Position numbers and translations under genes: made by a program. Of a stretch of 64,000 nucleotides of DNA, positions 6,623-40,943 are shown piece after piece (within the stretch, counting starts at the first letter, position 1; every line of letters begins with the position of its first letter). The notes below the pieces were generated by a model that was not told where the DNA came from, did not search any database, and worked only from the letters and a program-made list of their open reading frames with translations. The DNA lies in assembly GCF_058153355.1 (NCBI RefSeq), contig NZ_CM177019.1. One strand, 5' to 3'.

Positions 6623-6629
6623 AACCCTC

Positions 6630-7205: not shown

Positions 7206-7216
7206 CACGCCTCCTG

Positions 7217-7803: not shown

Positions 7804-7997
7804 TATTCTGCTCCACGGCACCAGTGGCAGTAGTTCGCCATCGGCTGCTGTCTCAGCACATCAGGCCGCAGCTCACGACCGCAACCGGCACACAATACAG
7901 GCGGGTCATACGCCGCCGGGCGGGGAATATCACGGGTATCCCCCTGCCAGAGTTCAGCGAGCAGCAGCGCCACCGCCCGGTTCTGGTCTTCGTTCAT
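7803..7997 (-). CDS. Mu gp24, small Cys-pair (zinc-ribbon-like) protein
   Basis: 64-aa ORF with CAGC...CHWC cysteine pairs, at the position of Mu gp24. Confidence 0.6.
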   Translation of the reverse strand: MNEDQNRAVALLLAELWQGDTRDIPRPAAYDPPVLCAGCGRELRPDVLRQQPMANYCHWCRGAE

Positions 7998-8295
7998 AAA
8001 TTTCTTTCCTTCGGGTCTCCTGTTCCCGGACTGATGCCTTGTCGCGGTTGCACTGCCCGAGCGCCATCAACAGGTCAGCATTCCAGAGAAGGGATGCTCC
8101 CCACGTCAGGGGCTGTGGCATGGGCGGAACGGGCGTTGCTTCCGTCAGTTCTGCATCAGTTTCGGGCAGGATCACCACCGATGGCACGGGTGCGTTTTTC
8201 GAGTTCCCGCAACCTGTCAGCAGCAACGGCAGGCACAGGACGAGTGCTGCAATTGTCACCGGTAATGGCGGTTGTAATTTTTTGTTTTGCATCAT
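7954..8295 (-). CDS. Outer-membrane spanin lipoprotein (Mu gp23.1-like), overlapping the i-spanin gene in another frame
   Basis: An internal start in track ORF 7954..8430 gives MMQNKKLQPPLPVTIAALVLCLPLLLTGCGNSK, a signal peptide plus the lipobox LLTGC. It begins inside gp23 and extends past it (overlapped spanin architecture). The start codon is uncertain (8292, 8295 or 8310). Confidence 0.65.
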   Translation of the reverse strand: MMQNKKLQPPLPVTIAALVLCLPLLLTGCGNSKNAPVPSVVILPETDAELTEATPVPPMPQPLTWGASLLWNADLLMALGQCNRDKASVREQETRRKEIYERRPEPGGGAAAR

Positions 8296-8542
8296 GATGT
8301 TCTGTCTCATCTTCCAGCCGCGCGGCACGATTTGCGGCACGGATAGCGGAAAATACCTGCATCGTCTGTTCCTGACTGTGTAACAACCATTCAGCAGTGT
8401 GGCGGGCCTGTTGCTCCGTCTGTAATTCACGGCGCAGCGTCTGGTTATCGTGGCGGGTGCTGTCCAGCCTGTGCCACAACACCCCGGACAGAACGGCGGT
8501 AAACACGGCTGCCAGCAGTAAACTTTTACTGGCGAAGGTCAT
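8156..8542 (-). CDS. Inner-membrane spanin (Mu gp23)
   Basis: 128-aa ORF with the N-terminal TMD LLLAAVFTAVLSGVLW and a charged coiled periplasmic domain. It lies immediately after lys. Confidence 0.75.
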   Translation of the reverse strand: MTFASKSLLLAAVFTAVLSGVLWHRLDSTRHDNQTLRRELQTEQQARHTAEWLLHSQEQTMQVFSAIRAANRAARLEDETEHHDAKQKITTAITGDNCSTRPVPAVAADRLRELEKRTRAIGGDPARN

Positions 8543-9044
8543 CCGCCCCCCTGATATTCCAGATTGCCATTTCCACTTCGCGACGGTTCATCAGTCCTTT
8601 CCATTTATGGCCTGCGGCAAACACCCAGCGGGCCATCTGGTCACGTGCTCCGGCGTAATCACCGGCATTGAGTTTTTTCAGCAGCGTTGATTTACTGAAT
8701 GCGGTAACACCGGTGTTGAAAATAAACGTTGCCAGCGCCGTTTTCTGATATGGCGTCAGCGGCACCCTGACAAGACGATCGATTGCCGCATAAACCGGTT
8801 TTAAATCACTGTCGAGGAGAGCCATACACTCCGCATGGCTGTAACGGCGCATTTCAATATCCGGCCCGGTATGTCCCACACAGACCGTAAGCACACCGGC
8901 AATATCGCGGTAAGGCAGATAAGCGATATTTTCCAGATGGATCAGAGACTGACGGGTCATTTCCTGATAACCACCCACACCGCCACCGGCAATTGTTACA
9001 GCCAGCAGTGCGGCTTTCAGTTTTTTTGGGATCTCCGCCATCAT
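8526..9044 (-). CDS. lys: Mu endolysin Lys (gp22), SAR-type lysozyme
   Basis: M(M)AEIPKKLKAALLAVTIAGGGVGGYQEM... has a Gly/Ala-rich signal-anchor-release N-terminus and a T4-lysozyme-like body. It matches my recall of Mu Lys. The start may be the second ATG (9041). Confidence 0.9.
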   Translation of the reverse strand: MMAEIPKKLKAALLAVTIAGGGVGGYQEMTRQSLIHLENIAYLPYRDIAGVLTVCVGHTGPDIEMRRYSHAECMALLDSDLKPVYAAIDRLVRVPLTPYQKTALATFIFNTGVTAFSKSTLLKKLNAGDYAGARDQMARWVFAAGHKWKGLMNRREVEMAIWNIRGADDLRQ

Positions 9045-9135
9045 GCTTCCCTGAAAAAATGCGCTGATGGCAGTCTAAAAAATCAGGTGACAGGTGCGGG
9101 ATTATGGTGACAGGAAATAACCGGCAGGATGCCGG
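9045..9135 (-). promoter_or_regulatory. Region expected to hold the C-dependent late promoter Plys
   Basis: 91-bp gap between the C stop and the lys start. In Mu, Plys is located here (recall). I did not confidently delimit the -10 or the C-binding site. Confidence 0.4.
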
Positions 9136-9140
9136 TTATT
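9116..9140 (-). terminator. Perfect 11-bp stem / 3-nt loop hairpin spanning the C stop codon (possible end of the middle transcript)
   Basis: aataaccggca-gga-tgccggttatt is seen directly in the sequence. No U-run follows on the minus strand, so this is not a canonical intrinsic terminator. Confidence 0.35.
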
Positions 9141-9558
9141 TCTGGCTTTCAGGTGAGAACAGGTCAGGCTGATGACGTCGTGTATGCAGCTTTCTCTGGC
9201 GGGCAATAATCTGGTAGATCTGCGGCTGGGACAGGCGATACTGGCGACGCAGTTCTTCCATGTTACGACCATTGAACTGGCAGTAAAGCAAATCGTCGCG
9301 TAACGCGGTCAGGATCGTATCGCCGCAGGGGATGTAAAACTGCCGCCCGCCCAGAAAACAGGACAGGGCAACGGCCTGTTTACGGGCAAGCTCACGGGGA
9401 TTGCTGACGTTCTGGCGTTTCAGTTCGTTTTCCAGAACATCAATCAGATCAACCACCGAACGGGGCCAGCGTGATTCCAGTTCCGGGGCCGGGATGTTAT
9501 CAATATGTCCGATTAACTGGCGAATTGCCGGATCGTGTTCAAATAAATCATGCTGCAT
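9136..9558 (-). CDS. C: Mu late transcription activator C (gp21)
   Basis: The 140-aa ORF MQHDLFEHDPAIRQLIGHIDNIPAPELE... is a paralogue of Mor in the same window (shared ...GG.Q.YIP.G... and FNG.N..EL motifs). It matches my recall of Mu C. Confidence 0.92.
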   Translation of the reverse strand: MQHDLFEHDPAIRQLIGHIDNIPAPELESRWPRSVVDLIDVLENELKRQNVSNPRELARKQAVALSCFLGGRQFYIPCGDTILTALRDDLLYCQFNGRNMEELRRQYRLSQPQIYQIIARQRKLHTRRHQPDLFSPESQK

Positions 9559-21485: not shown

Positions 21486-23522
21486 ATGGATACGCCACGC
21501 CCACAGTTATTAGATTTTCAATTTCATCAGAATAACGACAGTTTTACTCTACGTTTTCAAGACCGTCTTATTTTAATCCATAGCAAAGATAATCCTTGCT
21601 TATCGATTGGCTCAGGTATAGCGGATATCGATATGTTCCGCGGTAATTTCAGCATTAAAGATAAATTGCAGGAGAAGATTGCGCTCACCGACGCCATCGT
21701 CAGCCAGTCACCGGATGGCTGGTTAATCCATTTCAGCCGTGGTTCTGACATTAGCGCCACGCTGCGTATCTCTGCCGACGATCAGGGCCGTTTATTGCTG
21801 GAACTACAAAACGACAACCATCACCACAACCGCATCTGGCTGCGTCTTGCCGCACAACCAGAGGACCATATCTACGGCTGCGGCGAACAATTCTCCTACT
21901 TTGATCTGCGCGGCAAACCGTTCCCGCTATGGACCAGTGAACAAGGCGTTGGTCGCAACAAACAAACCTATGTCACCTGGCAGGCCGACTGCAAAGAGAA
22001 CGCGGGCGGCGACTATTACTGGACTTTCTTCCCGCAGCCTACTTTTGTCAGCACGCAGAAGTATTACTGCCATGTCGATAACAGCTGCTATATGAACTTC
22101 GACTTCAGTGCTCCGGAATACCATGAACTGGCATTGTGGGAAGACAATGCCACCCTGCGTTTTGAATGTGCGGACACATACATCTCCCTGTTGGAAAAAT
22201 TAACCGCCCTGCTGGGACGTCAGCCAGAACTGCCCGACTGGATTTATGACGGGGTAACGCTAGGTATTCAGGGCGGGACAGATGTATGCCAGAAGAAACT
22301 GGATACCATGCGTAACGCGGGTGTGAAGGTCAACGGCATCTGGGCGCAGGACTGGTCCGGGATCCGCATGACCTCGTTTGGCAAACGTGTGATGTGGAAC
22401 TGGAAGTGGAACAGTGAAAACTACCCACAGTTAGATTCCCGCATCAAGCAATGGAAAGAAGAAGGCGTGCAGTTCCTCGCCTACATCAACCCGTATGTTG
22501 CCAGCGATAAGGACCTCTGCGCCGAGGCGGCTTCACATGGCTATCTGGCAAAAGATGCCTCTGGCGGTGACTATCTGGTGGAATTTGGGGAGTTTTACGG
22601 CGGCGTTGTCGATTTGACCAATCCTGAAGCATATTCCTGGTTCAAAGAAGTCATCAAGAAAAACATGATCGAATTGGGCTGCGGCGGCTGGATGGCAGAT
22701 TTTGGCGAATACTTGCCGACCGATACGTATCTGCATAACGGCGTTAGCGCCGAAATTATGCATAACGCCTGGCCCGCACTGTGGGCGAAATGTAACTACG
22801 AAGCCCTTGAAGAAACGGGCAAGCTTGGCGAGATCCTTTTCTTTATGCGCGCCGGTTCTACCGGTAGCCAGAAATACTCCACCATGATGTGGGCGGGCGA
22901 CCAGAACGTCGACTGGAGTCTGGACGATGGCCTGGCGTCGGTTGTTCCGGCGGCGCTCTCGCTGGCGATGACCGGGCATGGCCTGCATCACAGTGACATT
23001 GGCGGTTACACCACCCTGTTTGAGATGAAGCGCAGCAAAGAGCTGCTGCTGCGCTGGTGCGATTTCAGCGCCTTCACGCCGATGATGCGCACCCACGAAG
23101 GTAACCGTCCTGGCGACAACTGGCAGTTTGACGGCGACGCGGAAACCATCGCCCATTTTGCCCGTATGACCACCGTCTTCACCACCCTGAAACCTTACCT
23201 CAAAGACGCCGTCGCGCTGAATGCGAAGTCCGGCCTGCCGGTTATGCGCCCGCTGTTCCTGCATTACGAAGACGACGCGCAGACCTACACCCTGAAATAT
23301 CAGTACCTGTTAGGCCGCGACATTCTGGTCGCTCCGGTGCATGAACAAGGCCGTAGCGACTGGACGCTCTATCTGCCGGAGGATAACTGGGTCCACGCCT
23401 GGACAGGTGAAGCGTTCCGGGGCGGGGAAGTTACCGTTAATGCGCCCATCGGTAAACCGCCGGTCTTTTATCGCGCCGATAGCGAATGGGCGGCACTGTT
23501 CGCGTCGTTAAAAAGCATCTAA
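21486..23522 (+). CDS. yihQ: GH31 sulfoquinovosidase YihQ
   Basis: 678-aa ORF with GH31 motifs (GIWAQDWSG, GWMADFGEYLP, WAGDQNVDW). Length and context match E. coli YihQ. Confidence 0.93.
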   Translation: MDTPRPQLLDFQFHQNNDSFTLRFQDRLILIHSKDNPCLSIGSGIADIDMFRGNFSIKDKLQEKIALTDAIVSQSPDGWLIHFSRGSDISATLRISADDQGRLLLELQNDNHHHNRIWLRLAAQPEDHIYGCGEQFSYFDLRGKPFPLWTSEQGVGRNKQTYVTWQADCKENAGGDYYWTFFPQPTFVSTQKYYCHVDNSCYMNFDFSAPEYHELALWEDNATLRFECADTYISLLEKLTALLGRQPELPDWIYDGVTLGIQGGTDVCQKKLDTMRNAGVKVNGIWAQDWSGIRMTSFGKRVMWNWKWNSENYPQLDSRIKQWKEEGVQFLAYINPYVASDKDLCAEAASHGYLAKDASGGDYLVEFGEFYGGVVDLTNPEAYSWFKEVIKKNMIELGCGGWMADFGEYLPTDTYLHNGVSAEIMHNAWPALWAKCNYEALEETGKLGEILFFMRAGSTGSQKYSTMMWAGDQNVDWSLDDGLASVVPAALSLAMTGHGLHHSDIGGYTTLFEMKRSKELLLRWCDFSAFTPMMRTHEGNRPGDNWQFDGDAETIAHFARMTTVFTTLKPYLKDAVALNAKSGLPVMRPLFLHYEDDAQTYTLKYQYLLGRDILVAPVHEQGRSDWTLYLPEDNWVHAWTGEAFRGGEVTVNAPIGKPPVFYRADSEWAALFASLKSI

Positions 23523-24993: not shown

Positions 24994-26397
24994 ATGTCTG
25001 ACCATAATCCACTGACATTAAAACTGAATCTGCGGGAAAAAATCGCTTATGGCATGGGCGACGTCGGTTCGAATTTAATGCTTAGCATCGGCACTCTGTA
25101 TCTCCTCAAATTTTATACCGATGAATTAGGGATGCCTGCTTACTATGGCGGGATTATCTTTCTGGTGGCGAAATTCTTTACCGCGTTTACCGATATGCTC
25201 ACCGGATTTTTACTCGACTCGCGGAAAAATATTGGGCCTAAAGGCAAATTTCGTCCCTTTATTTTATATGCAGCGGTTCCGGCGGCGTTAATTGCAACGC
25301 TCCAGTTTATCGCCACCACTTTTAGTTTGCCGATTAAAACGACGATTGCCACCGCGCTGTTTATGATGTTTGGACTTTCATACAGTCTGATGAACTGCTC
25401 GTATGGCGCGATGATCCCAGCAATTACCAAAAACCCCAATGAGCGCGCGCAGCTTGCGGCTTACCGCCAGGGTGGTGCAACCATAGGGCTATTGATTTGT
25501 ACCGTAGCATTTATTCCATTGCAGTCGCTTTTTTCTGACTCCACTGTCGGTTATGCCTGCGCGGCACTGATGTTCTCCATTGGTGGCTTTATTTTTATGA
25601 TGCTGTGCTACAGAGGCGTCAAAGAGCATTATGTGGACACGACGCCAACCGGACATAAAGCCAGTATTCTCAAATCTTTTTGCGCGATATTTCGTAATCC
25701 GCCATTGCTGGTTTTATGCATTGCTAACCTGTGTACCCTGGCGGCATTTAATATCAAACTGGCAATTCAGGTCTATTACACCCAGTATGTGCTGAATGAT
25801 ATTAATTTATTGTCGTGGATGGGATTCTTCAGTATGGGATGCATCCTCATCGGCGTATTGCTGGTGCCATTAACTGTAAAATATTTTGGTAAAAAACAGG
25901 TTTATTTAGCTGGCATGGTGCTGTGGGCGGTGGGGGATATCCTGAATTATTTCTGGGGCAGTAACTCTTTCACTTTCGTCATGTTCTCTTGTGTCGCCTT
26001 TTTTGGTACGGCCTTTGTAAACAGCCTGAACTGGGCGCTGGTACCGGATACCGTAGATTATGGTGAATGGAAAACAGGTATACGTGCCGAAGGTTCTGTT
26101 TATACCGGTTATACCTTCTTTCGTAAAATTTCAGCCGCACTTGCTGGCTTCTTGCCAGGCATTATGCTGACGCAAATCGGTTATGTTCCCAACATCGCGC
26201 AAAGCGATGCAACATTACAGGGTTTGCGTCAGCTCATTTTTATTTGGCCTTGTGCGCTGGCGATAATTGCTGCATTGACGATGGGATTCTTTTACACGCT
26301 CAATGAAAAACGTTTTGCGATGATTATTGAGGAAGTTAACCAACGCAAAAATAAAGAAATTAAGACAGAAGAAAAAACGGCTTCCGTAACGTTATAA
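24994..26397 (+). CDS. yihO: GPH-family sulfoquinovose importer YihO
   Basis: Start chosen at the ATG at 24994 (AAGGAG 5 nt upstream), giving 467 aa. It shares long identical blocks with YihP (LYLLKFYTD, GKFRPFILYA, MNCSYGAM.PAITKNPNERA). Confidence 0.9.
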   Translation: MSDHNPLTLKLNLREKIAYGMGDVGSNLMLSIGTLYLLKFYTDELGMPAYYGGIIFLVAKFFTAFTDMLTGFLLDSRKNIGPKGKFRPFILYAAVPAALIATLQFIATTFSLPIKTTIATALFMMFGLSYSLMNCSYGAMIPAITKNPNERAQLAAYRQGGATIGLLICTVAFIPLQSLFSDSTVGYACAALMFSIGGFIFMMLCYRGVKEHYVDTTPTGHKASILKSFCAIFRNPPLLVLCIANLCTLAAFNIKLAIQVYYTQYVLNDINLLSWMGFFSMGCILIGVLLVPLTVKYFGKKQVYLAGMVLWAVGDILNYFWGSNSFTFVMFSCVAFFGTAFVNSLNWALVPDTVDYGEWKTGIRAEGSVYTGYTFFRKISAALAGFLPGIMLTQIGYVPNIAQSDATLQGLRQLIFIWPCALAIIAALTMGFFYTLNEKRFAMIIEEVNQRKNKEIKTEEKTASVTL

Positions 26398-26463
26398 AAA
26401 CAATAGCCGCTATGACCATCTACAGGGATGGCGGCCTTCCTACATATAAAAAATGGATTTAAT

Positions 26464-27156
26464 ATGAAAAAGTTAAATGCAATAATTTTATTATCCTCTC
26501 TGACTTCCGCATCGGTATTCGCAGGCGCATACGTCGAAAACAGGGAGGCATATAATCTCGCCTCCGATCAGGGCGAGGTTATGCTACGTGTGGGTTATAA
26601 CTTCGATATGGGCGCGGGTATCATGTTAACCAATACCTACAACTTTCAGCGAGAAGATGAACTAAAACATGGATATAACGAAATCGAAGGTTGGTATCCT
26701 TTATTTAAACCAACCGATAAATTAACCATCCAGCCCGGTGGCTTAATTAATGATAAGAGCGCCGGTTCCGGTGGTGCTGTTTATCTGGATGTTAACTACA
26801 AATTTGCCCCGTGGTTTAACCTGACGGTACGCAACCGTTTTAACCATAATAACTACAGCACAACCGATTTAAACGGTGATCTGGATAATAATGACAGCTA
26901 CGAGATTGGTAACTACTGGAACTTTATTATTACCGATAAGTTCTCATATACCTTTGAACCGCATTATTTTTATAATATTAATGATTTCAACAGCAGCAAT
27001 GGCACCAAGCATCACTGGGAAATCACTAACACCTTCCGTTACCGAATTAATGAGCACTGGCTGCCCTATATTGAATTGCGCTGGTTAGACCGCAACGTCG
27101 AGCCGTACCACCGCGAGCAAAACCAGATCCGTATCGGGACGAAGTATTTCTTCTGA
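26464..27156 (+). CDS. ompL: Outer membrane porin OmpL
   Basis: Start chosen at MKKLNAIILLSSLTSASVFA (signal peptide), giving 230 aa. It has the terminal aromatic ...GTKYFF typical of a beta-barrel. Confidence 0.9.
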   Translation: MKKLNAIILLSSLTSASVFAGAYVENREAYNLASDQGEVMLRVGYNFDMGAGIMLTNTYNFQREDELKHGYNEIEGWYPLFKPTDKLTIQPGGLINDKSAGSGGAVYLDVNYKFAPWFNLTVRNRFNHNNYSTTDLNGDLDNNDSYEIGNYWNFIITDKFSYTFEPHYFYNINDFNSSNGTKHHWEITNTFRYRINEHWLPYIELRWLDRNVEPYHREQNQIRIGTKYFF

Positions 27157-27165
27157 TGTAAAAAT

Positions 27166-27199
27166 GTAAAAAGCCGCTGATATTTAAGCGGCTTTTTAC
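27166..27199 (+). terminator. Rho-independent terminator after ompL
   Basis: AAAAAGCCGCT-gatattta-AGCGGCTTTTT hairpin with a T-run, seen directly in the sequence. Confidence 0.8.
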
Positions 27200-27336
27200 A
27201 CAGATATTCACAATATAAATAACTCCCCATAATTATATAACCGCGTTGATTATAAAATATTCCTCGTCCTCTCTATCAAAGTCATTGACTACCAGGTAAG
27301 ATCTTTTCCACTGCAACACTCACAAGGAATGAGAAA

Positions 27337-28185
27337 ATGGAAAAGAAATTTTTTATGGATTGGGATAATGAAATCCCGCAAGAAGAGTTTATTAACAATA
27401 TTTTAGCCGATGAAGACCTGCCTAAAATCCGCTCTCTGATTATTGGTCGTTGGGGGGAGTGCTGGGATGAGGAAAGTTGCCAACCAATAATCGACATGTT
27501 TGTTGAACATGCCGAACGCTTTGCTCATCTCGAATCCCTATTTATCGGCGATATGGAAAGCGAAGAGTGTGAAATTTCGTGGATAAAACAAGGGGATTAT
27601 TCTCGTCTGTATGCTGCGCTGCCGAACCTGAAAAAGCTGACAATTAAAGGTACTCAGGGCCTGGAACTGGGAGAAATCGCCCATGACAAACTGGAGCATC
27701 TGGAAATTATCTCTGGCGGTACGCCGTGTGACGTGTTCGCCTCATTGCAAAATGCCCAACTGCCTGCGTTAAAAACACTTATCGTTTATATTGGCGTTGA
27801 GAATTATGGTTTTGATGCATCGCTGGATATCGTAATGAAGCTGGCGTCGAAATCCCTCTTCCCGAGCCTGACGCATCTTGGCCTGGTGAACAGCGAAGAG
27901 CAAAACGAAATCGTCCGCCGCGTGCTGGAAAGCGACATTCTGCCGCAACTGGAAGTGCTGGCACTCTCCTGCGGTACGCTTACCGACGAAGGTGCAGAGC
28001 ATCTTCTCAAACATGCCGATCGCCTTAGCCATCTGAAACTGCTGGATTTGTACCATCATTACCTGACAGAAGAGATGCAGAAAAAACTGCAAAAAACACT
28101 GACATGTACTCTCGAATTATCAGAAGCGCTAACGCCTGAAGTCTATGATGACGAAATTTATATGCATGCGATGTATACCGAATAA
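27337..28185 (+). CDS. Leucine-rich-repeat (RNI-like) protein; STM4015-family-like
   Basis: 282 aa with periodic L..L.L/I units (LESLFIGD, LKKLTIKG, LEHLEIISG, LKTLIVYIG, LTHLGLVNS, LEVLALSCGTLTDEGAEHLL, LKLLDLYHHYL). AAGGAA lies 7 nt upstream. The family name is from memory of NCBI family naming. Confidence 0.75.
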   Translation: MEKKFFMDWDNEIPQEEFINNILADEDLPKIRSLIIGRWGECWDEESCQPIIDMFVEHAERFAHLESLFIGDMESEECEISWIKQGDYSRLYAALPNLKKLTIKGTQGLELGEIAHDKLEHLEIISGGTPCDVFASLQNAQLPALKTLIVYIGVENYGFDASLDIVMKLASKSLFPSLTHLGLVNSEEQNEIVRRVLESDILPQLEVLALSCGTLTDEGAEHLLKHADRLSHLKLLDLYHHYLTEEMQKKLQKTLTCTLELSEALTPEVYDDEIYMHAMYTE

Positions 28186-29232
28186 ATGACATTTATTGGG
28201 AGAGAGTCATCTCTCCCATTATTTATCACAGAAAAGGAATTCTTCGTGATTACGCTAATTGGTCATCCTGAAAGCAAACGCACATTTTATTTTTGCCAGG
28301 CAGCGTCACGCTTACAGGAACATATCAACGTAGTGAGCTATGATCAAGCACTTACCCTGCTCTTAAATAAAGGCATGGTAAAAATCGATCCCCCCTTACA
28401 TCAGGAAACAGATATTCGCTTAATTAATACGGTTAGCCAAAACTATATTACTTTTTTACAAAAAATGGCTACCAGAAGGGAGATCCGTTTTATTAACTCA
28501 CCAGAAGGTATTATTCATCTTCTGGATAAACGCCACTGTAAGCAACGATTAGTCGAACACGCGATCCCGACACCGCCAATATTAGCGGATGATATCCGTA
28601 GCTACGATCAACTGATCGCCTGTATGCGCAGCGAAAAGGTTTATCGCGTGTTTATTAAGCCGAATTTCGGATCAGGGGCCGCCGGGGTGCTGGCTTTGAG
28701 TCTACATCCCGGCGATAACCGTCAGGCGCTTTATTGCGCCATCCAGGTTGCAGGTGACAGGCTGGTGAACAGTAAACATATTATCCGCTATGAAAACAGC
28801 GGTGATATTACGTTGATTGTGAATGCTATTTTACAACAAGACAATATTATCGAACGCTGGCTGGCAAAAGCCAGAGTGGGCAATAAAAGCTACGATTTAC
28901 GCATAGTGTACGTTAATGGTGAAATCGTCTGGCGGGTTGTCAGAACATCATCACAGCCGATCACCAATTTGCATCTGCAAAATGAAGCCATTCGTTTTGC
29001 CGATCTTAATTTACCCGCAGAAAAAGTGGCTGACATTGACACGCTTTGTCTCAACGCCATGAAACTCTACCCGGACGTACACATTGCCGGGCTTGATGTA
29101 TTACTCACGCAAAACTTAACCCCCTATATTATCGAAATTAACGGCCAGGGCGATCTTATTTATCAGGACACCTGCGAACAAAATATGATTTATCAACGCC
29201 AGATTCAGGTAATGAGAGAACACCATGTATAA
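28186..29232 (+). CDS. ATP-grasp (RimK/GshB-like) ligase; STM4014-family-like
   Basis: Motifs VFIKPNFGSGAAGV, YDLRIVYVNGEIV and AGLDVLLTQNLTPYIIEINGQGDL are present. The ATG abuts the upstream stop (TAAATG). An alternative GTG start at 28246 has AAGGAA upstream. Confidence 0.75.
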   Translation: MTFIGRESSLPLFITEKEFFVITLIGHPESKRTFYFCQAASRLQEHINVVSYDQALTLLLNKGMVKIDPPLHQETDIRLINTVSQNYITFLQKMATRREIRFINSPEGIIHLLDKRHCKQRLVEHAIPTPPILADDIRSYDQLIACMRSEKVYRVFIKPNFGSGAAGVLALSLHPGDNRQALYCAIQVAGDRLVNSKHIIRYENSGDITLIVNAILQQDNIIERWLAKARVGNKSYDLRIVYVNGEIVWRVVRTSSQPITNLHLQNEAIRFADLNLPAEKVADIDTLCLNAMKLYPDVHIAGLDVLLTQNLTPYIIEINGQGDLIYQDTCEQNMIYQRQIQVMREHHV

Positions 29233-30097
29233 CGTAACAGACGAAGTCCCGGAAAATACCCGCACGGCAATCCATTCCTGCGATGGCGAAATCAATATGA
29301 ATGATTTGATAGCCAGGGAGGCGAATGTTCTGTTTGTAGTGCTTGATTCCCTGCGTTTTGATATTGCGTTTCAGGAACAAGAGGCGGGCAATACGCCGAA
29401 CATTAACCGCTATGGTCGCTGGATAAAGTGCGAAGCCGCTGGCAATTTTACCTGGCCTTCGCATCATTCGATGTTTTCTGGTTTTATGCCTAAGCCGCTG
29501 GAAGCCGCACCGGGCCATTCAATGCTCTTTTTTCCCAAAGATATTGGCTTAGGGCGTTTAGGGCCAAAAAATGCATTCGCATTCAGCGAAGAGACGTGGA
29601 TTAAAGGGCTGGAAAACAAAGGTTACCGCACTATCTGCGTGGGTGGCATCTCCTTTTTTAATAACCGCTCAGGGATGGGAAAAGTGTTCCCGGCGATGTT
29701 TAAAGAGAGTTACTGGTATCCTAATTTCTCCTGCACGGTGAAAGAGAGCATGGATAATCAGCTCACCTTAATTAACAAAAAGGTGAACGCTGAACAGCCG
29801 CTGATGATGTATATCAATATCGACACCATTCATTATCCGAATCATTTTTATATTGAAAATGCCAAACCTGGCGATACGGTAGAAACTCACGCCGCTGCCC
29901 TGCATTATATTGATGCCAGAATCGAAAAACTTTTCGATATCTTTCGGCAAACCGGGCGGGAAACGTTAGTTATTCTCTGTTCCGATCATGGCACCTGCTA
30001 CGGGGAAGACGGTAAATATTTCCACAGTTTTAACCATCCGATTGTGAATACCGTACCCTATTTTCACTTTGTGTTAGACGGCAAAGACCATGAATAA
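29225..30097 (+). CDS. Alkaline-phosphatase-superfamily hydrolase (nucleotide pyrophosphatase/phosphodiesterase-like); STM4013-family-like
   Basis: VVLDSLRFD, FTWPSHHSMFSG and LCSDHGTCYGEDG resemble the NPP/AlkP metal-ligand and nucleophile motifs. The gene overlaps the upstream gene by 8 nt. Confidence 0.7.
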   Translation: MYNVTDEVPENTRTAIHSCDGEINMNDLIAREANVLFVVLDSLRFDIAFQEQEAGNTPNINRYGRWIKCEAAGNFTWPSHHSMFSGFMPKPLEAAPGHSMLFFPKDIGLGRLGPKNAFAFSEETWIKGLENKGYRTICVGGISFFNNRSGMGKVFPAMFKESYWYPNFSCTVKESMDNQLTLINKKVNAEQPLMMYINIDTIHYPNHFYIENAKPGDTVETHAAALHYIDARIEKLFDIFRQTGRETLVILCSDHGTCYGEDGKYFHSFNHPIVNTVPYFHFVLDGKDHE

Positions 30098-31232
30098 TGA
30101 ATCGATTTATCAGCAATATATGTACAGTTACCCGCATAAGACCGCTTATCGGGAATTAAACAATATTGCTTTTGCGGATGTGAAATCGCGTATTTACGAG
30201 CATAAAACACATCTCTATATTCATATGCCTTTTTGCCAGAGCCGCTGCGGGTTTTGTAATCTCTTTACCTGCACGGGGGCAGACAATGCCTTTATCGACA
30301 ACTACATAGAAGCAATTATTATCCAGGCCCGGCAAATGCAACTTGCGCCTGTAGACTGGGCCAGTTTTACCATTGGCGGCGGTACGCCACTACTGCTTAA
30401 TACCGGGCAACTGTCACGGTTGTTTCGCGGGGTGTTTGACGAATTACAGGTCGATGCGCAGATTTTTAAGGCAATTGAAACATCGCCTTCCGATACCACC
30501 GCCGAAAAGGTCGCGTTATTGCGCCAGCTTGCGGTAAGCCGCGGCAGGGGTAATTTCCCGATAATCAATATTGATATTATTTACGGTATTCCTGGTCAAA
30601 CAGCCGCAAGTTTAATGGCGTCGCTTAATCAGGCATTAGATTATCAGCCTGACGAACTTTTTTTGTACCCGCTGTATAACATGCCGCGCCAGCCGGATAT
30701 GTATAGCCTCTATATTGAAGCCCGCGATCGCTTATTGCATGAAGGTTATACGCAAACGTCAATGCGCCGTTTTGTGCGGGTGAATAATGAGTCGACGGCT
30801 GAAAGTTGTGGCTTTGAAAATTCGCTGGCGCTTGGCGCGGGCGGGCGCAGTTATCTTGGCAATTTACATTACTGCACGCCGTGGTCGCAAAACCAGCCCG
30901 CATCGCGGCAAATTGTCACGGATTTTATCGCCCGGCCAGATAAGACCCAGATTCACCACGGCTATGTACTTTCACAAGCAGAAATGAAGCGGCGTTTTAT
31001 TATCAAGAATCTCTTTTTCTATAAGGGGCTTTCGTTACGGGATTATCAGCATCAGTTCTTCTCTGAGGTATTAAGCGATTTTCCCCTGCTGGGAGATTTC
31101 ATCAAACAAGATTACTGCCACCAGCAGGATAATCGTATTCTGCTCACCGCGCAGGGTTTAGCGCTTTCGGACCAGCTTGGCCCGCTGTTTATCTCCCCGG
31201 AAGTTCGCAGGCTGGAGACGCATAAACGATGA
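30090..31232 (+). CDS. HemN-like radical SAM protein; STM4012-family-like
   Basis: HMPFCQSRCGFCNLF (CxxxCxxC), IGGGTPLLL and NIDIIYGIPGQT parallel the HemN motifs found in the same window. It overlaps the upstream gene by 8 nt. Confidence 0.8.
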   Translation: MNNESIYQQYMYSYPHKTAYRELNNIAFADVKSRIYEHKTHLYIHMPFCQSRCGFCNLFTCTGADNAFIDNYIEAIIIQARQMQLAPVDWASFTIGGGTPLLLNTGQLSRLFRGVFDELQVDAQIFKAIETSPSDTTAEKVALLRQLAVSRGRGNFPIINIDIIYGIPGQTAASLMASLNQALDYQPDELFLYPLYNMPRQPDMYSLYIEARDRLLHEGYTQTSMRRFVRVNNESTAESCGFENSLALGAGGRSYLGNLHYCTPWSQNQPASRQIVTDFIARPDKTQIHHGYVLSQAEMKRRFIIKNLFFYKGLSLRDYQHQFFSEVLSDFPLLGDFIKQDYCHQQDNRILLTAQGLALSDQLGPLFISPEVRRLETHKR

Positions 31233-32086
31233 CGCTCAAGCAGATCCAGACGCTGATTTATCGCGGCGAGATAAAGTCGTGTAATTATCGCTGTGGTTAT
31301 TGCCCTTTTCATAAACAAGACCGCAATGATAAACAGCAGGATGAAGTGGCATTATGGCGCATGGTTGAACATTTACCGGCGCTGGGTTCACCATTAAATG
31401 TATTTATTACGCCCTACGGCGAAGCATTGCGTTATCGTTATTATATGGCGGCGATGGCGGAAATCAGCCGCTATTCCCATGTGCAGGCGGTGGGTATTCA
31501 GACCAACGCCTCTTTTAATTTATCCACCTTAGTCGCGACTTTTCAGCACTCTCAGGGCGATTTAGCAAAGCTGCGGCTGTGGTGTTCGTTTCATCCTTCC
31601 CAGGTCAGTAAAGAAGTTTTCCTTAAACAGTTACTGGCAATTAAGGACACGGGGATTACCTGTTCTGTGGGGGCCGTCGCCAGCGTAGCCGACTATGACG
31701 AATTACAGTGGTTACGCGCGCATCTTCCTCCCGATATCTATTTCTGGCTAAACGCCAATGAGCGCGATAAAAGGCCCACCAGCGACGAAAGAAATAGCCA
31801 GTTTCAGTTGCTGGACCCGCTTTATTATCTGGAAACCAGCCTCTGGCCTGCCAATGTCGAGTTTTGTCTGGGCGGCAAAAAGAGCGTGTTTATGAATGCT
31901 GATGGCGATCTCTTCGCCTGTAATATCAGCAAAATTAAGATTGGCAATTTATATCAACAGCAACTTTCATCTCCGGCTTGTATGTCCAGGCACTGTCACT
32001 GTTATCTGGCTTATCACCTGCGTGAGGATATTCCGGCCCTCTCACAATTTGATGCTGAACGCTGCTTTCGGATCTTCTCGTTATGA
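31229..32086 (+). CDS. Small radical SAM protein; STM4011-family-like
   Basis: N-terminal SCNYRCGYCPF (CxxxCxxC) and a Cys-rich C-terminal region. ATGA overlap with the upstream gene. Confidence 0.75.
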   Translation: MTLKQIQTLIYRGEIKSCNYRCGYCPFHKQDRNDKQQDEVALWRMVEHLPALGSPLNVFITPYGEALRYRYYMAAMAEISRYSHVQAVGIQTNASFNLSTLVATFQHSQGDLAKLRLWCSFHPSQVSKEVFLKQLLAIKDTGITCSVGAVASVADYDELQWLRAHLPPDIYFWLNANERDKRPTSDERNSQFQLLDPLYYLETSLWPANVEFCLGGKKSVFMNADGDLFACNISKIKIGNLYQQQLSSPACMSRHCHCYLAYHLREDIPALSQFDAERCFRIFSL

Positions 32087-32778
32087 TCTGGCGGTTAATC
32101 GCGCTCGATTTAGACGGCACATTGCTGAACAGCAAGAAGATGATTTCCCCTGCGTCTGTTTCGGCACTGCAAAGCGCACAACAGGCAGGTGTGAAGATTA
32201 TCCTTGCCACCGGACGTTCGCACAGCAAAGCCCTGCCTTATTACCAACAATTGCAGTTAACCGAGCCGATGATTTGCTGTAACGGCAGCTATCTTTATCA
32301 TCCGCGCCAGCGGCAAATATTGCGTCCGCTGGCGCTTGATATCCACAAGGTGGAACAACTACGACTCTGGTTTTCACAACAAATATTGCAGCCAAATATT
32401 TATACGTACGATGATTTTGTTTTGCAGATTAGCCTGATACACCGCAAGACTTCGTTATTGCGCCAGACAGAGGAATTTGCCCGGCAAGAATTATCGCTGG
32501 CCTGTAGCTGGTCCTGGCATCATCAACTGGATATTACTCAGGCGGGGTGCGATAAAGGCAAAAGTCTGCTCTGGTATGCCCAGCAGCAAAATATCGCGCT
32601 GGATGAAATTATTGCCTTTGGCGACAACGATAATGATGCGGGGATGCTGCGGATGGTAGGCAAAGGGATTGCGATGGGCAATGGCAGTTCGCTGGCAAAA
32701 GTCAGTGCTGACCGCGTTATTGGTCACAACAACACAGATGCTATTGCGGATTTTCTTGATGCGCAGGGTTTCAGATGA
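32083..32778 (+). CDS. Cof-type HAD-IIB phosphatase
   Basis: Motif I (IALDLDGTLLN), ILATGRS, KGKSL and FGDNDNDAGML are present. ATGA overlap with the upstream gene. Confidence 0.8.
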   Translation: MIWRLIALDLDGTLLNSKKMISPASVSALQSAQQAGVKIILATGRSHSKALPYYQQLQLTEPMICCNGSYLYHPRQRQILRPLALDIHKVEQLRLWFSQQILQPNIYTYDDFVLQISLIHRKTSLLRQTEEFARQELSLACSWSWHHQLDITQAGCDKGKSLLWYAQQQNIALDEIIAFGDNDNDAGMLRMVGKGIAMGNGSSLAKVSADRVIGHNNTDAIADFLDAQGFR

Positions 32779-32779
32779 C

Positions 32780-32816
32780 GCCTGATGCGATGCTGGCGCA
32801 TCTTATCAGGCCTACA
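32780..32816. repeat. REP (repetitive extragenic palindromic) element
   Basis: gcctgatgcgatgctggcgcatcttatcaggcctac is a typical REP palindrome. Confidence 0.8.
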
Positions 32817-32821
32817 AAAGC

Positions 32822-32852
32822 AAAAAACCTGCCATCGCTGGCAGGTTTTTTA
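32822..32852. terminator. Bidirectional rho-independent terminator between the HAD gene and typA
   Basis: AAAAAACCTGCCA-tcgc-TGGCAGGTTTTTT has an A-run and a T-run flanking a 9-bp stem. Confidence 0.85.
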
Positions 32853-32868
32853 TGACTAAAAAACGAAA

Positions 32869-34692
32869 TTAATCGTCTTTCGGTGCGCGGTTGGCGCGAC
32901 GACGATCGTTTTCCGTCAGGTGACGTTTACGAATACGGATAGAGGTCGGAGTCACTTCTACCAGTTCGTCATCATCGATGAACTCCAGAGCTTGTTCCAG
33001 AGTCATGCGGATAGGCGGAACCAGAACAACGGCTTCGTCAGTACCGGAAGCACGCATGTTGGTCAGTTTCTTACCGGTCAGACAGTTTACAGTCAGGTCG
33101 TTAGAGCGGCTATGAATACCGATAATCTGACCTTCGTAAACTTCTGCACCGTGACCGAGGAACAGCTTACCGCGATCCTGCAGACCGAACAGCGCGAACG
33201 CGACCGCTTTACCCTGACCGTTAGAGATCAGTACACCGTTCTGACGCTGTCCCACTTCGCCCGGACGTACGTCGTCGTAGTGGCTGAAGGTGGAGTACAG
33301 CAGACCAGTACCGGAAGTCATGGTCATGAACTCAGAACGGAAGCCAATCAGACCACGGCTTGGGATCACGTAGTCGAGACGTACGCGGCCTTTACCGTCT
33401 GGATTCATGTTTTTCAGGTCGCCTTTACGTTCGCCCAGCGCCTGCATCACAGAACCCTGATGCTGTTCTTCAACGTCCAGAGTCACGTTTTCATACGGCT
33501 CTTGTTTACGACCGTCGATTTCACGGAAGATAACTTTCGGACGGGATACCGCCAGTTCGAAACCTTCACGACGCATGTTTTCGATCAGAACAGACAGGTG
33601 CAGTTCGCCACGACCAGAAACGCGGAACGCATCGGCGTCTTCAGTTTCTTCTACGCGCAGCGCAACGTTGTGTACCAGTTCTTTGTTCAGACGATCCAGG
33701 ATCTGACGAGACGTTACGAACTTACCTTCTTTACCGCAGAACGGCGAGGTGTTAACGCAGAAGAACATAGAAACGGTCGGCTCATCAACGGAGAGTGCCG
33801 GCAGCGCTTCAACGTTTTGCGTGTCGCAAACGGTGTCAGAAATGTTCAGTTCGCCCAGGCCCGTGATCGCCACGATATCGCCAGCTTCCGCCAGATCGGT
33901 TTCGATACGTTCCAGACCGAGGTGGCCCAGCACTTTACCGACTTTCGCGTTGCGGGTTTTGCCTTCGCTATCGATGATAGTAACTTGCTGGTTCGGCTTC
34001 ACTTTACCGCGCTTGATGCGGCCAATGCCGATAACGCCAACATAGCTGTTGTAATCGAGCTGAGAAATCTGCATCTGGAACGGACCGTCAAGGTCAACGT
34101 CCGGCGCAGGAACGTGGTCAACAATTGCCTGATACAGCGGGGTCATGTCTTCCGCCATATCTTCGTGGTCCAGACCGGCGATACCGTTCAGCGCAGAAGC
34201 GTAAACGATCGGGAAGTCCAGCTGCTCGTCGGTCGCGTCGAGGTTAACGAACAGGTCGAATACCTGATCCACAACCCAGTCAGGACGCGCGCCAGGGCGG
34301 TCAACTTTGTTGATAACAACAATCGGCTTCAGGCCATAAGCAAACGCTTTTTTGGTTACGAAGCGCGTTTGCGGCATCGGGCCGTCAAATGCGTCAACCA
34401 CCAGCAGCACTGAGTCTACCATGGACATTACACGTTCAACTTCACCACCGAAGTCGGCGTGCCCCGGGGTATCAACGATGTTGATACGGTAATCATTCCA
34501 TTTGATAGCGGTGTTTTTCGCGAGGATGGTAATCCCACGCTCTTTCTCCAAATCGTTGGAGTCCATCACGCGCTCTTGGGTTTCGGCACGAGAGTCGAAC
34601 GTACCAGATTGTTGGAGCAGCTTGTCTACCAGGGTGGTTTTACCATGGTCTACGTGCGCGATGATGGCGATATTACGCAATTTTTCGATCAC
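32869..34692 (-). CDS. typA: Ribosome-dependent translational GTPase TypA/BipA
   Basis: 607-aa [35 protein letters not shown]... with G1-G4 GTPase motifs, matching E. coli BipA. Confidence 0.97.
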
Positions 34693-39569: not shown

Positions 39570-40943
39570 TTAAATCACCCGTGAGAACTGCTGCATCCGC
39601 GCTTTCTGGCGCAGATAGGTATCAAAGCACATGCAAATGTTGCGGATCAGCAGGCGACCTTTCGCCGTTACCTGAATCCCCTTCTCATCCACATCCACCA
39701 GCCCATCTTTTGCTAACGGGGCAAGCAGCTTGAGATCTTCTGCAAAGTAGTCAGCGAAGAGCAAATCCCACTGTTGCTCAATAGGGGCGTAATCCAGACG
39801 GAAGTTGCAGATGAGCGACTTAATCACATCGCGGCGAATACAGTCATCACGCGTTAGCGCAATACCACGCCACAGCGCATTGCCTTGTTCATCCACTTGC
39901 TGATAGTACTGCTTCAACTCTTTCTGGTTCTGCGCGTAGCAGTCGCCAATCATGCTGATGGCGGAAACGCCCATCCCCAGCAGATCGGTATCGCCCTGAG
40001 TGGTGTAGCCCTGGAAGTTACGATGCAGCACGCCTTCACGCTGGGCCACCGCCAGCTCGTCATCCGGACGGGCAAAGTGATCCATACCGATAAACTGATA
40101 GCCCGATTGTGTCAGGAAGGCGATGGTTTCCTGCAGGATATCCAGTTTTTGCTGTGGACTCGGCAGGTCAGCATCTTTGATTTTTCGCTGAGCAGCAAAA
40201 ATGGTCGGCAGATGCGCATAGTTAAAGACGCTCAGACGATCGGGGTTCAGCTCCGCCACGCGTTTCAGGGTAAAAGCGAAACTCTCCGGCGTCTGTTTCG
40301 GCAGGCCGTAAATCAGGTCGATGTTGGTGGAGGTAAAGCCAATCTCACGCGCATGGTTAAGCAGTGCAAAGATGAACTCTTCATCCTGCTCGCGGTTAAC
40401 CAGACGTTGCACTTCTTTATTGAAGTCCTGCACGCCCATGCTCAGGCGATTAAAGCCTTCGGCGCGTAAATGATCGAGTACATCCAGTTCGATTTCCCGC
40501 GGATCGACTTCGATCGAAATCTCCGCATCGGCATTGAACTGGAAGTTTTCGCGCAGCAGCTTCATCAGGCGGCTGATTTGCGCTTTGTTCAGATACGTCG
40601 GCGTACCACCGCCCCAGTGCAATTGGCTGACGTGACGCCCGGCGAACAGCGGTGCACGATGGACGATTTCTTGCTCCAGTGCGTCCAGATACTGATCGGC
40701 CTTGTGCTGCTGGCGAGTAACAATCTTATTGCAACCGCAGAAGTAACAAAGCTTATGGCAGAACGGGATATGTACGTAGAGAGATAATGGACGCTCAGGA
40801 TAGCGCGCCACGGCTTGTAAAAACGCCTGTTCGCCGAAGTCTTCTGAAAACTCCAGCGCGGTTGGGTACGAGGTGTATCGTGGCCCGGAATAGTTATATT
40901 TCTGGATCAGGGCCAGATCCCAGTCGATTTGCTGTACAGACAT
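39570..40943 (-). CDS. hemN: Oxygen-independent coproporphyrinogen III dehydrogenase HemN (radical SAM)
   Basis: Trimmed to MSVQQIDWDLALIQKYNYSGPRYTSYPTALEF (457 aa). It contains HIPFCHKLCYFCGC. Confidence 0.97.
   Translation of the reverse strand: MSVQQIDWDLALIQKYNYSGPRYTSYPTALEFSEDFGEQAFLQAVARYPERPLSLYVHIPFCHKLCYFCGCNKIVTRQQHKADQYLDALEQEIVHRAPLFAGRHVSQLHWGGGTPTYLNKAQISRLMKLLRENFQFNADAEISIEVDPREIELDVLDHLRAEGFNRLSMGVQDFNKEVQRLVNREQDEEFIFALLNHAREIGFTSTNIDLIYGLPKQTPESFAFTLKRVAELNPDRLSVFNYAHLPTIFAAQRKIKDADLPSPQQKLDILQETIAFLTQSGYQFIGMDHFARPDDELAVAQREGVLHRNFQGYTTQGDTDLLGMGVSAISMIGDCYAQNQKELKQYYQQVDEQGNALWRGIALTRDDCIRRDVIKSLICNFRLDYAPIEQQWDLLFADYFAEDLKLLAPLAKDGLVDVDEKGIQVTAKGRLLIRNICMCFDTYLRQKARMQQFSRVI

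What the first reader, a model, noticed from the sequence alone, without database searches (positions are those of the whole stretch)
30537..30566. The HemN-like radical SAM protein lacks ~30 residues of the conserved core, compared with HemN in the same window
I aligned the cassette protein by eye to HemN (39570..40943). Both share CxxxCxxC, GGGTP and NID(L/I)IYG(L/I)P.QT.

Between the ...(F)NR / ...(V)SR position and NIDxIYG, HemN has about 40 residues (LSMGVQDFNKEVQRLVNREQDEEFIFALLNHAREIGFTST). The cassette protein has only 8 (GRGNFPII). The missing stretch includes the LS.GVQ(S/D)F strand motif that is typical of HemN-family TIM-barrel cores.

Two explanations are possible. The gap may be a defining trait of this family, implying a different SAM or substrate geometry. 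Alternatively it may be a strain-specific in-frame deletion that inactivates the enzyme and possibly the whole cassette.
Basis: seen in the sequence. Interest (0 to 1): 0.5.

Follow-up and report, generated by a model that had tools for sequence, protein, structure and literature searches.

The report
Clone-specific deletion in STM4012 radical SAM gene
One E. coli lineage has lost 96 bases from the middle of an uncharacterised HemN-like radical SAM gene, removing a conserved piece of its cofactor-binding core and probably inactivating it; this is an ordinary strain-level lesion, not a new enzyme design.

Summary
The 380-aa HemN-like protein (30090..31232) lacks 32 residues that HemN has between "NR" and "NIDxIYG".

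The gap is not a family trait. It is an in-frame 96-bp deletion with its junction at 30543|30544. Codons V152 to R184 are replaced by a single Gly codon.

- All 157 complete E. coli genomes with the gene have 1239 bp (412 aa), including the 99%-identical closest relative.
- All 119 full-length homologues checked, down to 40% identity in Lachnospiraceae, have exactly 32 residues at this position.
- The lost piece is strand β4, helix α4a and most of α4 of the radical SAM partial barrel. It holds seven family-invariant residues, including Q157 and R169, which align with HemN Q172 and R184.
- The Pfam Radical_SAM score falls from 62.8 to 27.2 bits, below the 29.5 cutoff.
- The AlphaFold model has five core strands instead of six, with a linker at the scar that dips below pLDDT 50.

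The allele is real. The identical protein occurs in at least two isolates (GCA_015332025.1/SRR8656992 and SRR31441161).

The other five cassette genes are full length, which fits a recent loss-of-function lesion. Inactivation is inferred, not shown. Interest is low.

The parts
30090..31232 (+). STM4012-family HemN-like radical SAM gene, deletion allele (380 aa instead of 412)
   Evidence: NF006067 scores 424.8 bits in two stretches, against 489.1 bits in one stretch for the intact orthologue. The exact protein is EGO8352860.1 / HFG3509778.1.
30543..30545 (+). Deletion scar: a hybrid Gly codon, GGC. Its G comes from V152 (GTC) and its GC from R184 (CGC). The junction lies between 30543 and 30544, and 96 nt are missing.
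   Evidence: DNA alignment A1 with two intact E. coli alleles; junction codons read. There is no microhomology at the exact junction. An in-register CAG lies 1 nt inside it.
30537..30566 (+). The flagged stretch. It encodes S150-I159 (SRGRGNFPII), the linker that now joins helix α3 directly to strand β5.
   Evidence: In the model, pLDDT is below 50 at residues 152-154 and the mean for residues 151-160 is 57.
27337..28185 (+). STM4015 family protein (cassette gene 1), full length
   Evidence: NF038076 scores 323.1 bits. Similar length to the orthologues: 282 aa here, 286 aa in L001 and 281 aa in L002.
28246..29232 (+). STM4014 family ATP-grasp protein (cassette gene 2), full length. The ORF could start at 28186; RefSeq orthologues start at the position equivalent to 28246.
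   Evidence: NF038074 scores 335.5 bits. Annotated as 987 bp in L001 and L002.
29225..30097 (+). STM4013/SEN3800 family sulfatase-like hydrolase (cassette gene 3), full length. Its stop overlaps the STM4012 start.
   Evidence: NF038075 scores 349.8 bits. It is 873 bp, as in L001 and L002. Overlap seen.
31229..32086 (+). STM4011 family radical SAM/SPASM protein (cassette gene 5), full length. Its start overlaps the STM4012 stop (ATGA), so the in-frame deletion leaves translational coupling intact.
   Evidence: NF038073 scores 299 bits. It is 858 bp, as in the orthologues. Overlap seen.
32083..32778 (+). Cof-type HAD-IIB hydrolase (cassette gene 6), full length for this lineage
   Evidence: TIGR00099 scores 182.6 bits. 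It is 696 bp in strains with an intact cassette. It is fused to STM4011 in Lachnospiraceae.
39570..40943 (-).
   Evidence: TIGR00538 scores 804.6 bits. Canonical numbering was verified: Q172 lies in GVQD and R184 in VNR.

Best explanation
The gene at 30090..31232 is a deletion allele of the STM4012-family HemN-like radical SAM enzyme. A single 96-bp in-frame deletion occurred in one E. coli lineage. It removed residues 152-183 and changed R184 to Gly.

The lost segment is strand β4 (RVSIGVQ, ending in the 'ribose-motif' Gln), the short helix α4a, the conserved Arg-x-His that follows it, and nearly all of helix α4. That amounts to one whole β/α unit of the six-unit partial TIM barrel that holds the [4Fe-4S] cluster and SAM.

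The cluster cysteines, the GGGTP motif, the β5 NIDIIYG motif and the C-terminal domain remain. The reading frame and translational coupling to the downstream gene are also preserved, so a protein is probably still made. It most likely cannot bind or position SAM, and may not fold stably, which would make it a null or severely crippled enzyme.

The other five genes of the conserved cassette are still full length, so the lesion is probably recent. The pathway the cassette encodes, whose product is unknown, is probably broken at this step.

Shown: the deletion, its exact junction, its restriction to one lineage, and the conservation of the lost residues. Inferred: loss of activity and loss of cassette function.
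For: Restriction to one lineage:
- All 157 of 5426 complete E. coli genomes carrying the gene span 1239 bp in two BLAST pieces against the window's 1143 bp. This includes the closest allele at 99% identity.
- The DNA alignment shows one clean 96-nt gap.
- The best 120 of 4872 database homologues are 405-492 aa long, apart from one partial sequence.
- All 119 full-length homologues carry exactly 32 residues in the gap.

Conservation of the lost segment:
- It contains invariant S153, G155, Q157, S158, L164, R169 and H171, and nearly invariant F159, E163, L167 and A179, across 88 family members at 43-71% identity.
- The intact orthologue aligns without gaps to HemN 1OLT across this region, so Q157 corresponds to HemN Q172 and R169 to HemN R184. 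NocN (9p2u) has the same RVSxGVQSF...RRH motif.
- PMC9204698 describes the ribose motif (a Gln in TokK) and a polar residue of, or following, the short α4a helix between β4 and α4 as classic SAM-binding elements.

Structure predictions:
- The intact model has core strands at 40-46, 90-97, 126-131, 151-157, 190-197 and 221-226, with helices at 161-166 and 173-186.
- The window model has no strand between helix 138-146 and strand 160-165, and pLDDT is below 50 at residues 152-154.
- In Foldseek against the PDB, the intact model gives 119 hits at E<=1e-3 and matches 1OLT with rmsd 3.7 Å. The deleted model gives 2 hits and rmsd 5.5 Å.
- Pfam Radical_SAM scores 62.8 bits for the intact protein and 27.2 bits, below the cutoff, for the window protein.

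The allele is real:
- The exact protein is found on 5 contigs from NCBI and Logan assemblies.
- L005 (SRR31441161) is identical to the window. L003 and L004 (GCA_015332025.1 and SRR8656992) differ at the same 2 SNPs, so there are at least two isolates.

The cassette is a conserved unit:
- The same gene order occurs in Lachnospiraceae.
Against: No experiment bears on activity. AlphaFold still models the rest of the protein confidently (mean pLDDT 89.7), and the protein still passes the NF006067 cutoff (424.8 against 380), so a folded product with some residual or altered function cannot be excluded.

The HemN contacts of Q172 and R184 with SAM are recalled from Layer et al. 2003 (EMBO J 22:6214). 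That paper was not available here.

Only 90 of the 157 E. coli rows were inspected individually.

The cassette may already be dispensable in E. coli. One strain has an IS1 insertion in this gene, and many truncated fragments exist. If so, the lesion might have no phenotypic consequence.
Confidence: 0.87

Rival explanations
1. The short segment is a defining trait of the STM4012 family, which would then have a remodelled five-stranded core with a different SAM or substrate geometry.
For: Only the within-window comparison with HemN. The protein still scores above the family cutoff.
Against: Every other family member has the segment, at exactly 32 residues and with seven invariant positions. Intact E. 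coli orthologues at 95-99% identity are 412 aa. The family profile itself contains these positions, because the window protein skips roughly profile positions 155-187.
Confidence: 0.01
2. The gap is an assembly or sequencing artefact, and the real genome has the full 1239-bp gene.
For: Nothing specific. No complete RefSeq genome carries the gap.
Against: The identical 380-aa product was called on 5 contigs from NCBI assemblies and from independently assembled Logan contigs of two different runs. The two isolates differ by 2 SNPs in 10.7 kb. The region is not repetitive, the gap is exactly in frame, and it has a single clean junction.
Confidence: 0.03
3. The deletion is real, but the shortened protein retains a function. 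Examples would be a SAM-independent scaffold or chaperone, or a protein working with the second radical SAM enzyme STM4011. The allele would then be neutral or adaptive rather than null.
For: The deletion is in frame. The cluster cysteines, GGGTP, the β5 motif and the C-terminal domain are kept. AlphaFold models the remainder with confidence. The allele persists in at least two isolates separated by some divergence. NCBIfam lists a HemN-related 'non-iron pseudo-SAM protein PsgB' family (TIGR04419, seen), so degenerate HemN-like proteins can have roles.
Against: A whole β/α unit from the middle of the barrel, with seven invariant residues, is lost. No other member among thousands shows such a form. 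Structural similarity to radical SAM enzymes collapses from 119 to 2 significant PDB hits. AlphaFold is known to be insensitive to destabilising deletions. The two differences between the deletion-bearing isolates are both derived nonsynonymous changes in cassette genes, which fits relaxed constraint, although with only two changes this is anecdotal.
Confidence: 0.07

Closest known systems
STM4012 family radical SAM protein (NCBIfam NF006067 / PRK08208), e.g. WP_039021156.1 in E. coli 2017-02-2CC
   Same: 98% identical outside the gap. It sits at the same position in the same STM4015-4014-4013-4012-4011-Cof cassette between ompL and typA. It has the same CxxxCxxC, GGGTP and NIDIIYGIPGQT motifs and the same C-terminal domain.
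   Different: The window allele lacks residues 152-183 and carries R184G, so strand β4, helix α4a and helix α4 are missing. It is 380 aa rather than 412 aa. The profile match is split in two and 64 bits lower.
E. coli HemN, oxygen-independent coproporphyrinogen III oxidase (PDB 1OLT; TIGR00538), present in this window at 39570..40943
   Same: The overall fold is the same: the intact orthologue model has TM-score 0.81 normalised to the model (0.77 to 1OLT) and rmsd 3.7 Å. It shares the cluster motif, the GGGTP motif, the GVQxF strand in intact members, the NIDxIYG motif and the HemN_C domain.
   Different: Only 24% identical. It scores 81.9 bits against a cutoff of 325 on the hemN model. It lacks HemN's fourth cysteine (CxxxCxxCxC), reading CQSRCGFCNLF. 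It belongs to a different, uncharacterised pathway cassette. The window allele additionally lacks the equivalent of HemN residues 167-198.
Class C (HemN-like) radical SAM methyltransferases and relatives: NocN (PDB 9p2u), ChuW/HutW, HemW
   Same: These are HemN-like radical SAM proteins. NocN shares the RVSxGVQSF...RRH segment with intact STM4012 proteins. Intact STM4012 scores 130 bits on the HemW model and 114 bits on the HutW model.
   Different: All those scores are below the family cutoffs (205 and 400), so this is a separate family. Its substrate and its chemistry (methylation, decarboxylation or another reaction) are unknown.

Membership tests
STM4012 family radical SAM protein (NF006067) | Whole-protein HMM score above the curated cutoff of 380 bits | tested here: met
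   424.8 bits, but in two stretches that skip about 32 profile positions. The intact orthologue scores 489.1 bits in one stretch.
STM4012 family radical SAM protein (NF006067) | Genomic context: flanked by STM4013 upstream and STM4011 downstream, within the STM4015-to-Cof cassette | tested here: met
   All five neighbours score above their NCBIfam cutoffs. The order is the same in intact E. coli strains and in Lachnospiraceae.
STM4012 family radical SAM protein (NF006067) | Invariant β4/α4a segment S-x-G-V-Q-S-F...E-L..L-x-R-x-H (residues 153-171 of the 412-aa form) | tested here: not met
   Deleted in the window allele. The residues are invariant across 88 members. The gene belongs to the family by descent, but the allele lacks a conserved core element.
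Radical SAM superfamily (Pfam PF04055) | CxxxCxxC cluster-binding motif | tested here: met
   C49, C53 and C56 are invariant in alignment A3.
Radical SAM superfamily (Pfam PF04055) | Domain score above the gathering threshold (29.5 bits), covering the β1-β6 core | tested here: not met
   27.2 bits, covering profile positions 1-103 of 166 only. The intact orthologue scores 62.8 bits over positions 1-163.
Radical SAM superfamily (Pfam PF04055) | Six-stranded partial (β/α)6 barrel with the GGE, ribose, GxIxGxxE and β6 SAM-binding motifs (PMC9204698) | tested here: not met
   The model has five core strands. The β4 strand with its ribose-motif Gln, and the Arg after α4a, are absent. This comes from a structure prediction, not an experiment.
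HemN, oxygen-independent coproporphyrinogen III oxidase (TIGR00538) | Equivalog HMM score of at least 324.95 bits | tested here: not met
   81.9 bits for the window allele and 114.3 bits for the intact orthologue. The true HemN in the window scores 804.6 bits.
HemN, oxygen-independent coproporphyrinogen III oxidase (TIGR00538) | Fourth conserved cysteine, CxxxCxxCxC (from my own knowledge of HemN) | tested here: not met
   The sequence reads CQSRCGFCNLF, against CHKLCYFCGC in HemN.
STM4012 family radical SAM protein (NF006067) | Catalytic activity: reductive SAM cleavage and the substrate reaction | not testable with these tools
   No biochemical data exist for any family member. The literature search found only incidental mentions of the cassette genes.

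The most novel reading that the evidence does not exclude
The 380-aa protein may still fold as a five-stranded radical SAM core and still work, either with altered SAM geometry or as a non-catalytic partner of STM4011. That would be a natural example of a radical SAM barrel tolerating the loss of a whole β/α unit.

Separately, and more usefully, this lineage is a natural in-frame and probably non-polar knock-out of one step in a six-gene cassette with two radical SAM enzymes. The cassette is conserved from Enterobacteria to Lachnospiraceae and its product is entirely unknown. Comparing the deletion strain with a near-isogenic intact strain could help to reveal that product.
Probability: 0.05. 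Interest if true: 0.55.

Novelty: already known. Interest (0 to 1): 0.12.

Why it matters
It matters little in itself. It is a lineage-restricted loss-of-function-type lesion in an accessory gene, of the kind found in any bacterial pangenome.

There are three practical points:
- The public protein records (EGO8352860.1, HFG3509778.1) carry an ordinary family name. Nothing seen here flags the missing core, so the protein should not be treated as a normal family representative.
- The comparison shows that the STM4012 family has a fully canonical HemN-type core, so no unusual SAM geometry needs to be invoked.
- The deletion is in frame and leaves the overlapping start of the downstream gene intact. 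It is therefore a ready-made, probably non-polar mutant for anyone trying to assign a function to the uncharacterised STM4011-STM4015 cassette.

Tried and rejected
- **Family-trait reading.** Rejected after the alignments.
- **Artefact reading.** Considered and largely rejected, because the allele recurs in independently assembled runs from two isolates.
- **Microhomology or slipped-strand origin.** The exact junction has no shared bases. A GCG repeat would give a 97-bp out-of-frame deletion. An in-register CAG lies 1 nt inside the junction but would leave a T where the window has a G. No clean mechanism follows and my reading of alignment A1.
- **Link to sulfoquinovose metabolism.** The cassette lies beside the yihOPQ sulfoquinovose genes in E. 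coli and beside a GH31 gene in Lachnospiraceae. That GH31 is an alpha-xylosidase (NF007940, 1217 bits), not a YihQ type, so I treat the shared neighbourhood as coincidence.
- **Literature on HemN SAM contacts.** Layer et al. 2003 is not held, and two text searches for the residue names found nothing relevant. The Q172 and R184 contact roles therefore rest on my memory plus the general motif description in PMC9204698.
- **Literature on the cassette.** Only incidental table entries were found: STM4011 slightly up-regulated in a regulator study, and a σ54 ChIP-chip site within STM4013.
- **Not run.** The search of protein representatives and the metagenome and genome scans, because the question was already settled.

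Full report
**Setting.** The window is E. coli chromosome covering yihQ-yihP-yihO-ompL, then a six-gene cassette, then typA(bipA)-glnA-glnL-glnG-hemN. In K-12 the space between ompL and bipA holds yihLMN instead.

The cassette genes all pass NCBIfam cutoffs:
- STM4015 family protein, 27337..28185
- STM4014 ATP-grasp protein, 28246..29232
- STM4013/SEN3800 sulfatase-like hydrolase, 29225..30097
- STM4012 HemN-like radical SAM protein, 30090..31232
- STM4011 radical SAM/SPASM protein, 31229..32086
- Cof-type HAD hydrolase, 32083..32778

Only 157 of 5426 complete E. coli genomes carry the STM4012 gene.

**Checking the observation.** The flagged bases 30537..30566 encode SRGRGNFPII, residues 150-159 of the 380-aa STM4012 protein. 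BLASTP against the window's own HemN gives 24% identity and E=1e-22, with gaps exactly between 'SR' and 'NID'. MAFFT shows one clean 32-column gap, with 40 residues in HemN against 8 in the cassette protein. Pfam's Radical_SAM match ends at profile position 103 of 166 and scores 27.2 bits, below the 29.5 gathering score. The STM4012 family model matches in two stretches, and the second resumes at profile position 187.

**Family trait or lesion.** All 157 E. coli genomes match the 1143-bp query in two pieces spanning 1239 bp, including the closest allele at 99% identity. RefSeq annotates those genes as 412-aa STM4012 proteins.

A DNA alignment with two intact alleles shows a single 96-nt gap in the window. 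The junction lies between 30543 and 30544. Codons V152 to R184 are replaced by one hybrid Gly codon, GGC. In protein terms, residues 152-183 are deleted and R184 becomes Gly.

In the 5.8-billion-protein collection, the 120 best of 4872 hits are 405-492 aa long, apart from one partial sequence. All 119 full-length homologues, down to about 40% identity in Lachnospiraceae, have exactly 32 residues in the gap.

Within the lost segment, S153, G155, Q157, S158, L164, R169 and H171 are invariant across 88 family members. F159, E163, L167 and A179 are nearly invariant.

**Is the allele real?** The exact 380-aa sequence is in public data as EGO8352860.1 and HFG3509778.1. It is encoded on 5 contigs.
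- L005 (Logan assembly of SRR31441161) is identical to the window over 10.7 kb.
- L003 (GCA_015332025.1) and L004 (Logan assembly of SRR8656992) share the same two SNPs relative to the window.

At least two isolates of one lineage carry the allele, assembled by different pipelines. An assembly artefact is unlikely.

**What was lost.** The intact orthologue aligns without gaps to HemN (PDB 1OLT) through this region. Q157 therefore corresponds to HemN Q172 (in GVQD) and R169 to HemN R184. The class C methyltransferase NocN (9p2u) carries the same RVSxGVQSF...RRH motif.

From my memory of Layer et al. 2003 (EMBO J 22:6214), Q172 and R184 contact the cluster-bound SAM. That paper was not available here. 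The general rule is stated in PMC9204698: SAM is positioned by the GGE, ribose, GxIxGxxE and β6 motifs plus a polar residue of the α4a helix, the short helix that connects β4 to α4. In TokK the ribose-motif residue is a Gln, and an Arg that follows α4a also contacts SAM.

The AlphaFold model of the intact protein has mean pLDDT 92.1. Its core strands are at 40-46, 90-97, 126-131, 151-157, 190-197 and 221-226, with helices at 161-166 (α4a) and 173-186 (α4). The deletion therefore removes β4, α4a, the Arg-x-His that follows it, and nearly all of α4, which is one complete β/α unit.

In the model of the window protein, no strand lies between helix 138-146 and strand 160-165. The linker has pLDDT below 50 at residues 152-154, and the mean for residues 151-160 is 57.

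Foldseek against the PDB shows the effect on fold recognition:

| Model | Hits at E<=1e-3 | Match to 1OLT |
|---|---|---|
| Intact | 119, almost all radical SAM enzymes | rmsd 3.7 Å, TMt 0.77 |
| Deleted | 2 | rmsd 5.5 Å, TMt 0.70 |

Pfam Radical_SAM scores 62.8 bits for the intact protein and 27.2 bits for the window protein.

**Likely consequence (inferred).** The cluster cysteines (C49, C53, C56), the GGGTP motif, the β5 NIDIIYG motif and the C-terminal domain survive. The frame is kept, and the ATGA overlap with STM4011 is intact. A protein is therefore probably made, without polar effects on downstream genes.

A radical SAM core lacking a central strand and two SAM-contacting residues is very unlikely to bind and cleave SAM productively, and it may not fold stably. 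AlphaFold's confident modelling of the remainder does not argue against this, because the method is insensitive to destabilising deletions.

The other five cassette genes have the same or nearly the same lengths as in intact strains, which points to a recent lesion. The two SNPs that separate the two deletion-bearing isolates both lie in cassette genes. Both are nonsynonymous and both are derived in the window: STM4013 V142I and HAD E49K. This fits relaxed constraint, but two changes are too few to establish it.

**The cassette as a unit.** In Lachnospiraceae metagenome contigs the same order recurs: STM4015, STM4014, STM4013, STM4012, STM4011. There STM4011 is fused to the HAD hydrolase as one 497-aa protein. 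This is a conserved six-function module, and losing one enzyme plausibly breaks the pathway.

The cassette's function is unknown. The literature search found only incidental table entries for STM4011 and STM4013. The GH31 gene next to the Lachnospiraceae cassette is an alpha-xylosidase, not a YihQ-type sulfoquinovosidase. The apparent shared neighbourhood with the E. coli sulfoquinovose genes is therefore probably coincidental.

**How the deletion arose.** There is no microhomology at the exact junction, and nearby short repeats (GCG, CAG) do not reproduce the observed sequence. The mechanism remains open.

**Comparison with known families.** By descent and context the gene is a member of the STM4012 family (NF006067). 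The allele lacks a conserved core element of that family and falls below Pfam's radical SAM threshold. It is not HemN: it scores 81.9 bits against a 325-bit cutoff, it lacks the fourth cysteine, and the true hemN is elsewhere in the window. HemW, ChuW/HutW and NocN are related HemN-like proteins, but all score below their family cutoffs.

**Verdict.** This is an ordinary loss-of-function-type lesion in an accessory gene of a known but uncharacterised family. Interest is low. Its only wider use is as a natural, probably non-polar mutant for studying the unknown STM4011-4015 pathway.

Noticed in passing
window 27337..32778; L007 5198..10779: The cassette STM4015-4014-4013-4012-4011-Cof HAD keeps the same gene order in Lachnospiraceae metagenome contigs. 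There STM4011 and the HAD hydrolase are fused into one 497-aa protein. This is Rosetta-stone evidence that the HAD belongs to the pathway. The product of this module, which has two radical SAM enzymes, is unknown.
   Followed up: partly
window 26428..32869; L006 (K-12) 6448..9513: The cassette occupies the ompL-typA interval, where K-12 has yihL-yihM-yihN. The cassette's STM4012 gene is found in only 157 of 5426 complete E. coli genomes, so this is an alternative accessory island at a fixed chromosomal site.
   Followed up: partly
window 29648 and 32227: The only two differences between the window and the other deletion-bearing isolate (GCA_015332025.1 / SRR8656992) across 17 kb both lie in cassette genes. 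Both are nonsynonymous and derived in the window: STM4013 V142I and Cof HAD E49K. This fits relaxed selection after the STM4012 lesion, but two changes are too few to establish it.
   Followed up: partly
NZ_OZ546938.1 (hit H30); proteins P0122-P0135: STM4012 is disrupted independently in other strains. One complete genome has an IS1 insertion in the gene. C-terminal fragments of 82-235 aa are called in E. coli and E. fergusonii, some on large contigs; for example, a 205-aa fragment occurs on 10 contigs, the longest 1.26 Mb. The gene may be decaying repeatedly in Escherichia.
   Followed up: partly
window 32083..32778: The Cof-type HAD hydrolase is only 231 aa and matches the 256-aa Cof profile in two stretches, so part of the profile is unmatched. 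It has the same 696-bp length in strains with an intact cassette. Unlike the STM4012 gap, this shortness is therefore not specific to this lineage.
   Followed up: yes
window 26287..29537 and 31542..32741, compared with L001 and L002: Identity to the closest intact strain is mosaic. It is 99-100% over yihO and STM4012, but 77-96% over ompL to STM4013 and 92-95% over STM4011 and the HAD gene. The cassette has been shuffled by recombination between E. coli lineages.
   Followed up: partly
window 30234..30257 (residues C49 to C56): STM4012 proteins have CxxxCxxC followed by N-L-F, so they lack the fourth cysteine of HemN's CxxxCxxCxC motif. This is one more sign that the family is not a coproporphyrinogen oxidase, despite older 'coproporphyrinogen III oxidase family' annotations.
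   Followed up: no
L007 10832..13165; window 21486..23522: A GH31 glycosidase lies near the cassette in both Lachnospiraceae and E. coli. The Lachnospiraceae enzyme is a YicI-type alpha-xylosidase (NF007940, 1217 bits). The E. coli gene is the 678-aa GH31 gene, taken to be yihQ (sulfoquinovosidase) from its position and its Pfam GH31 domains; it was not scored directly. The shared neighbourhood is probably coincidental.
   Followed up: yes
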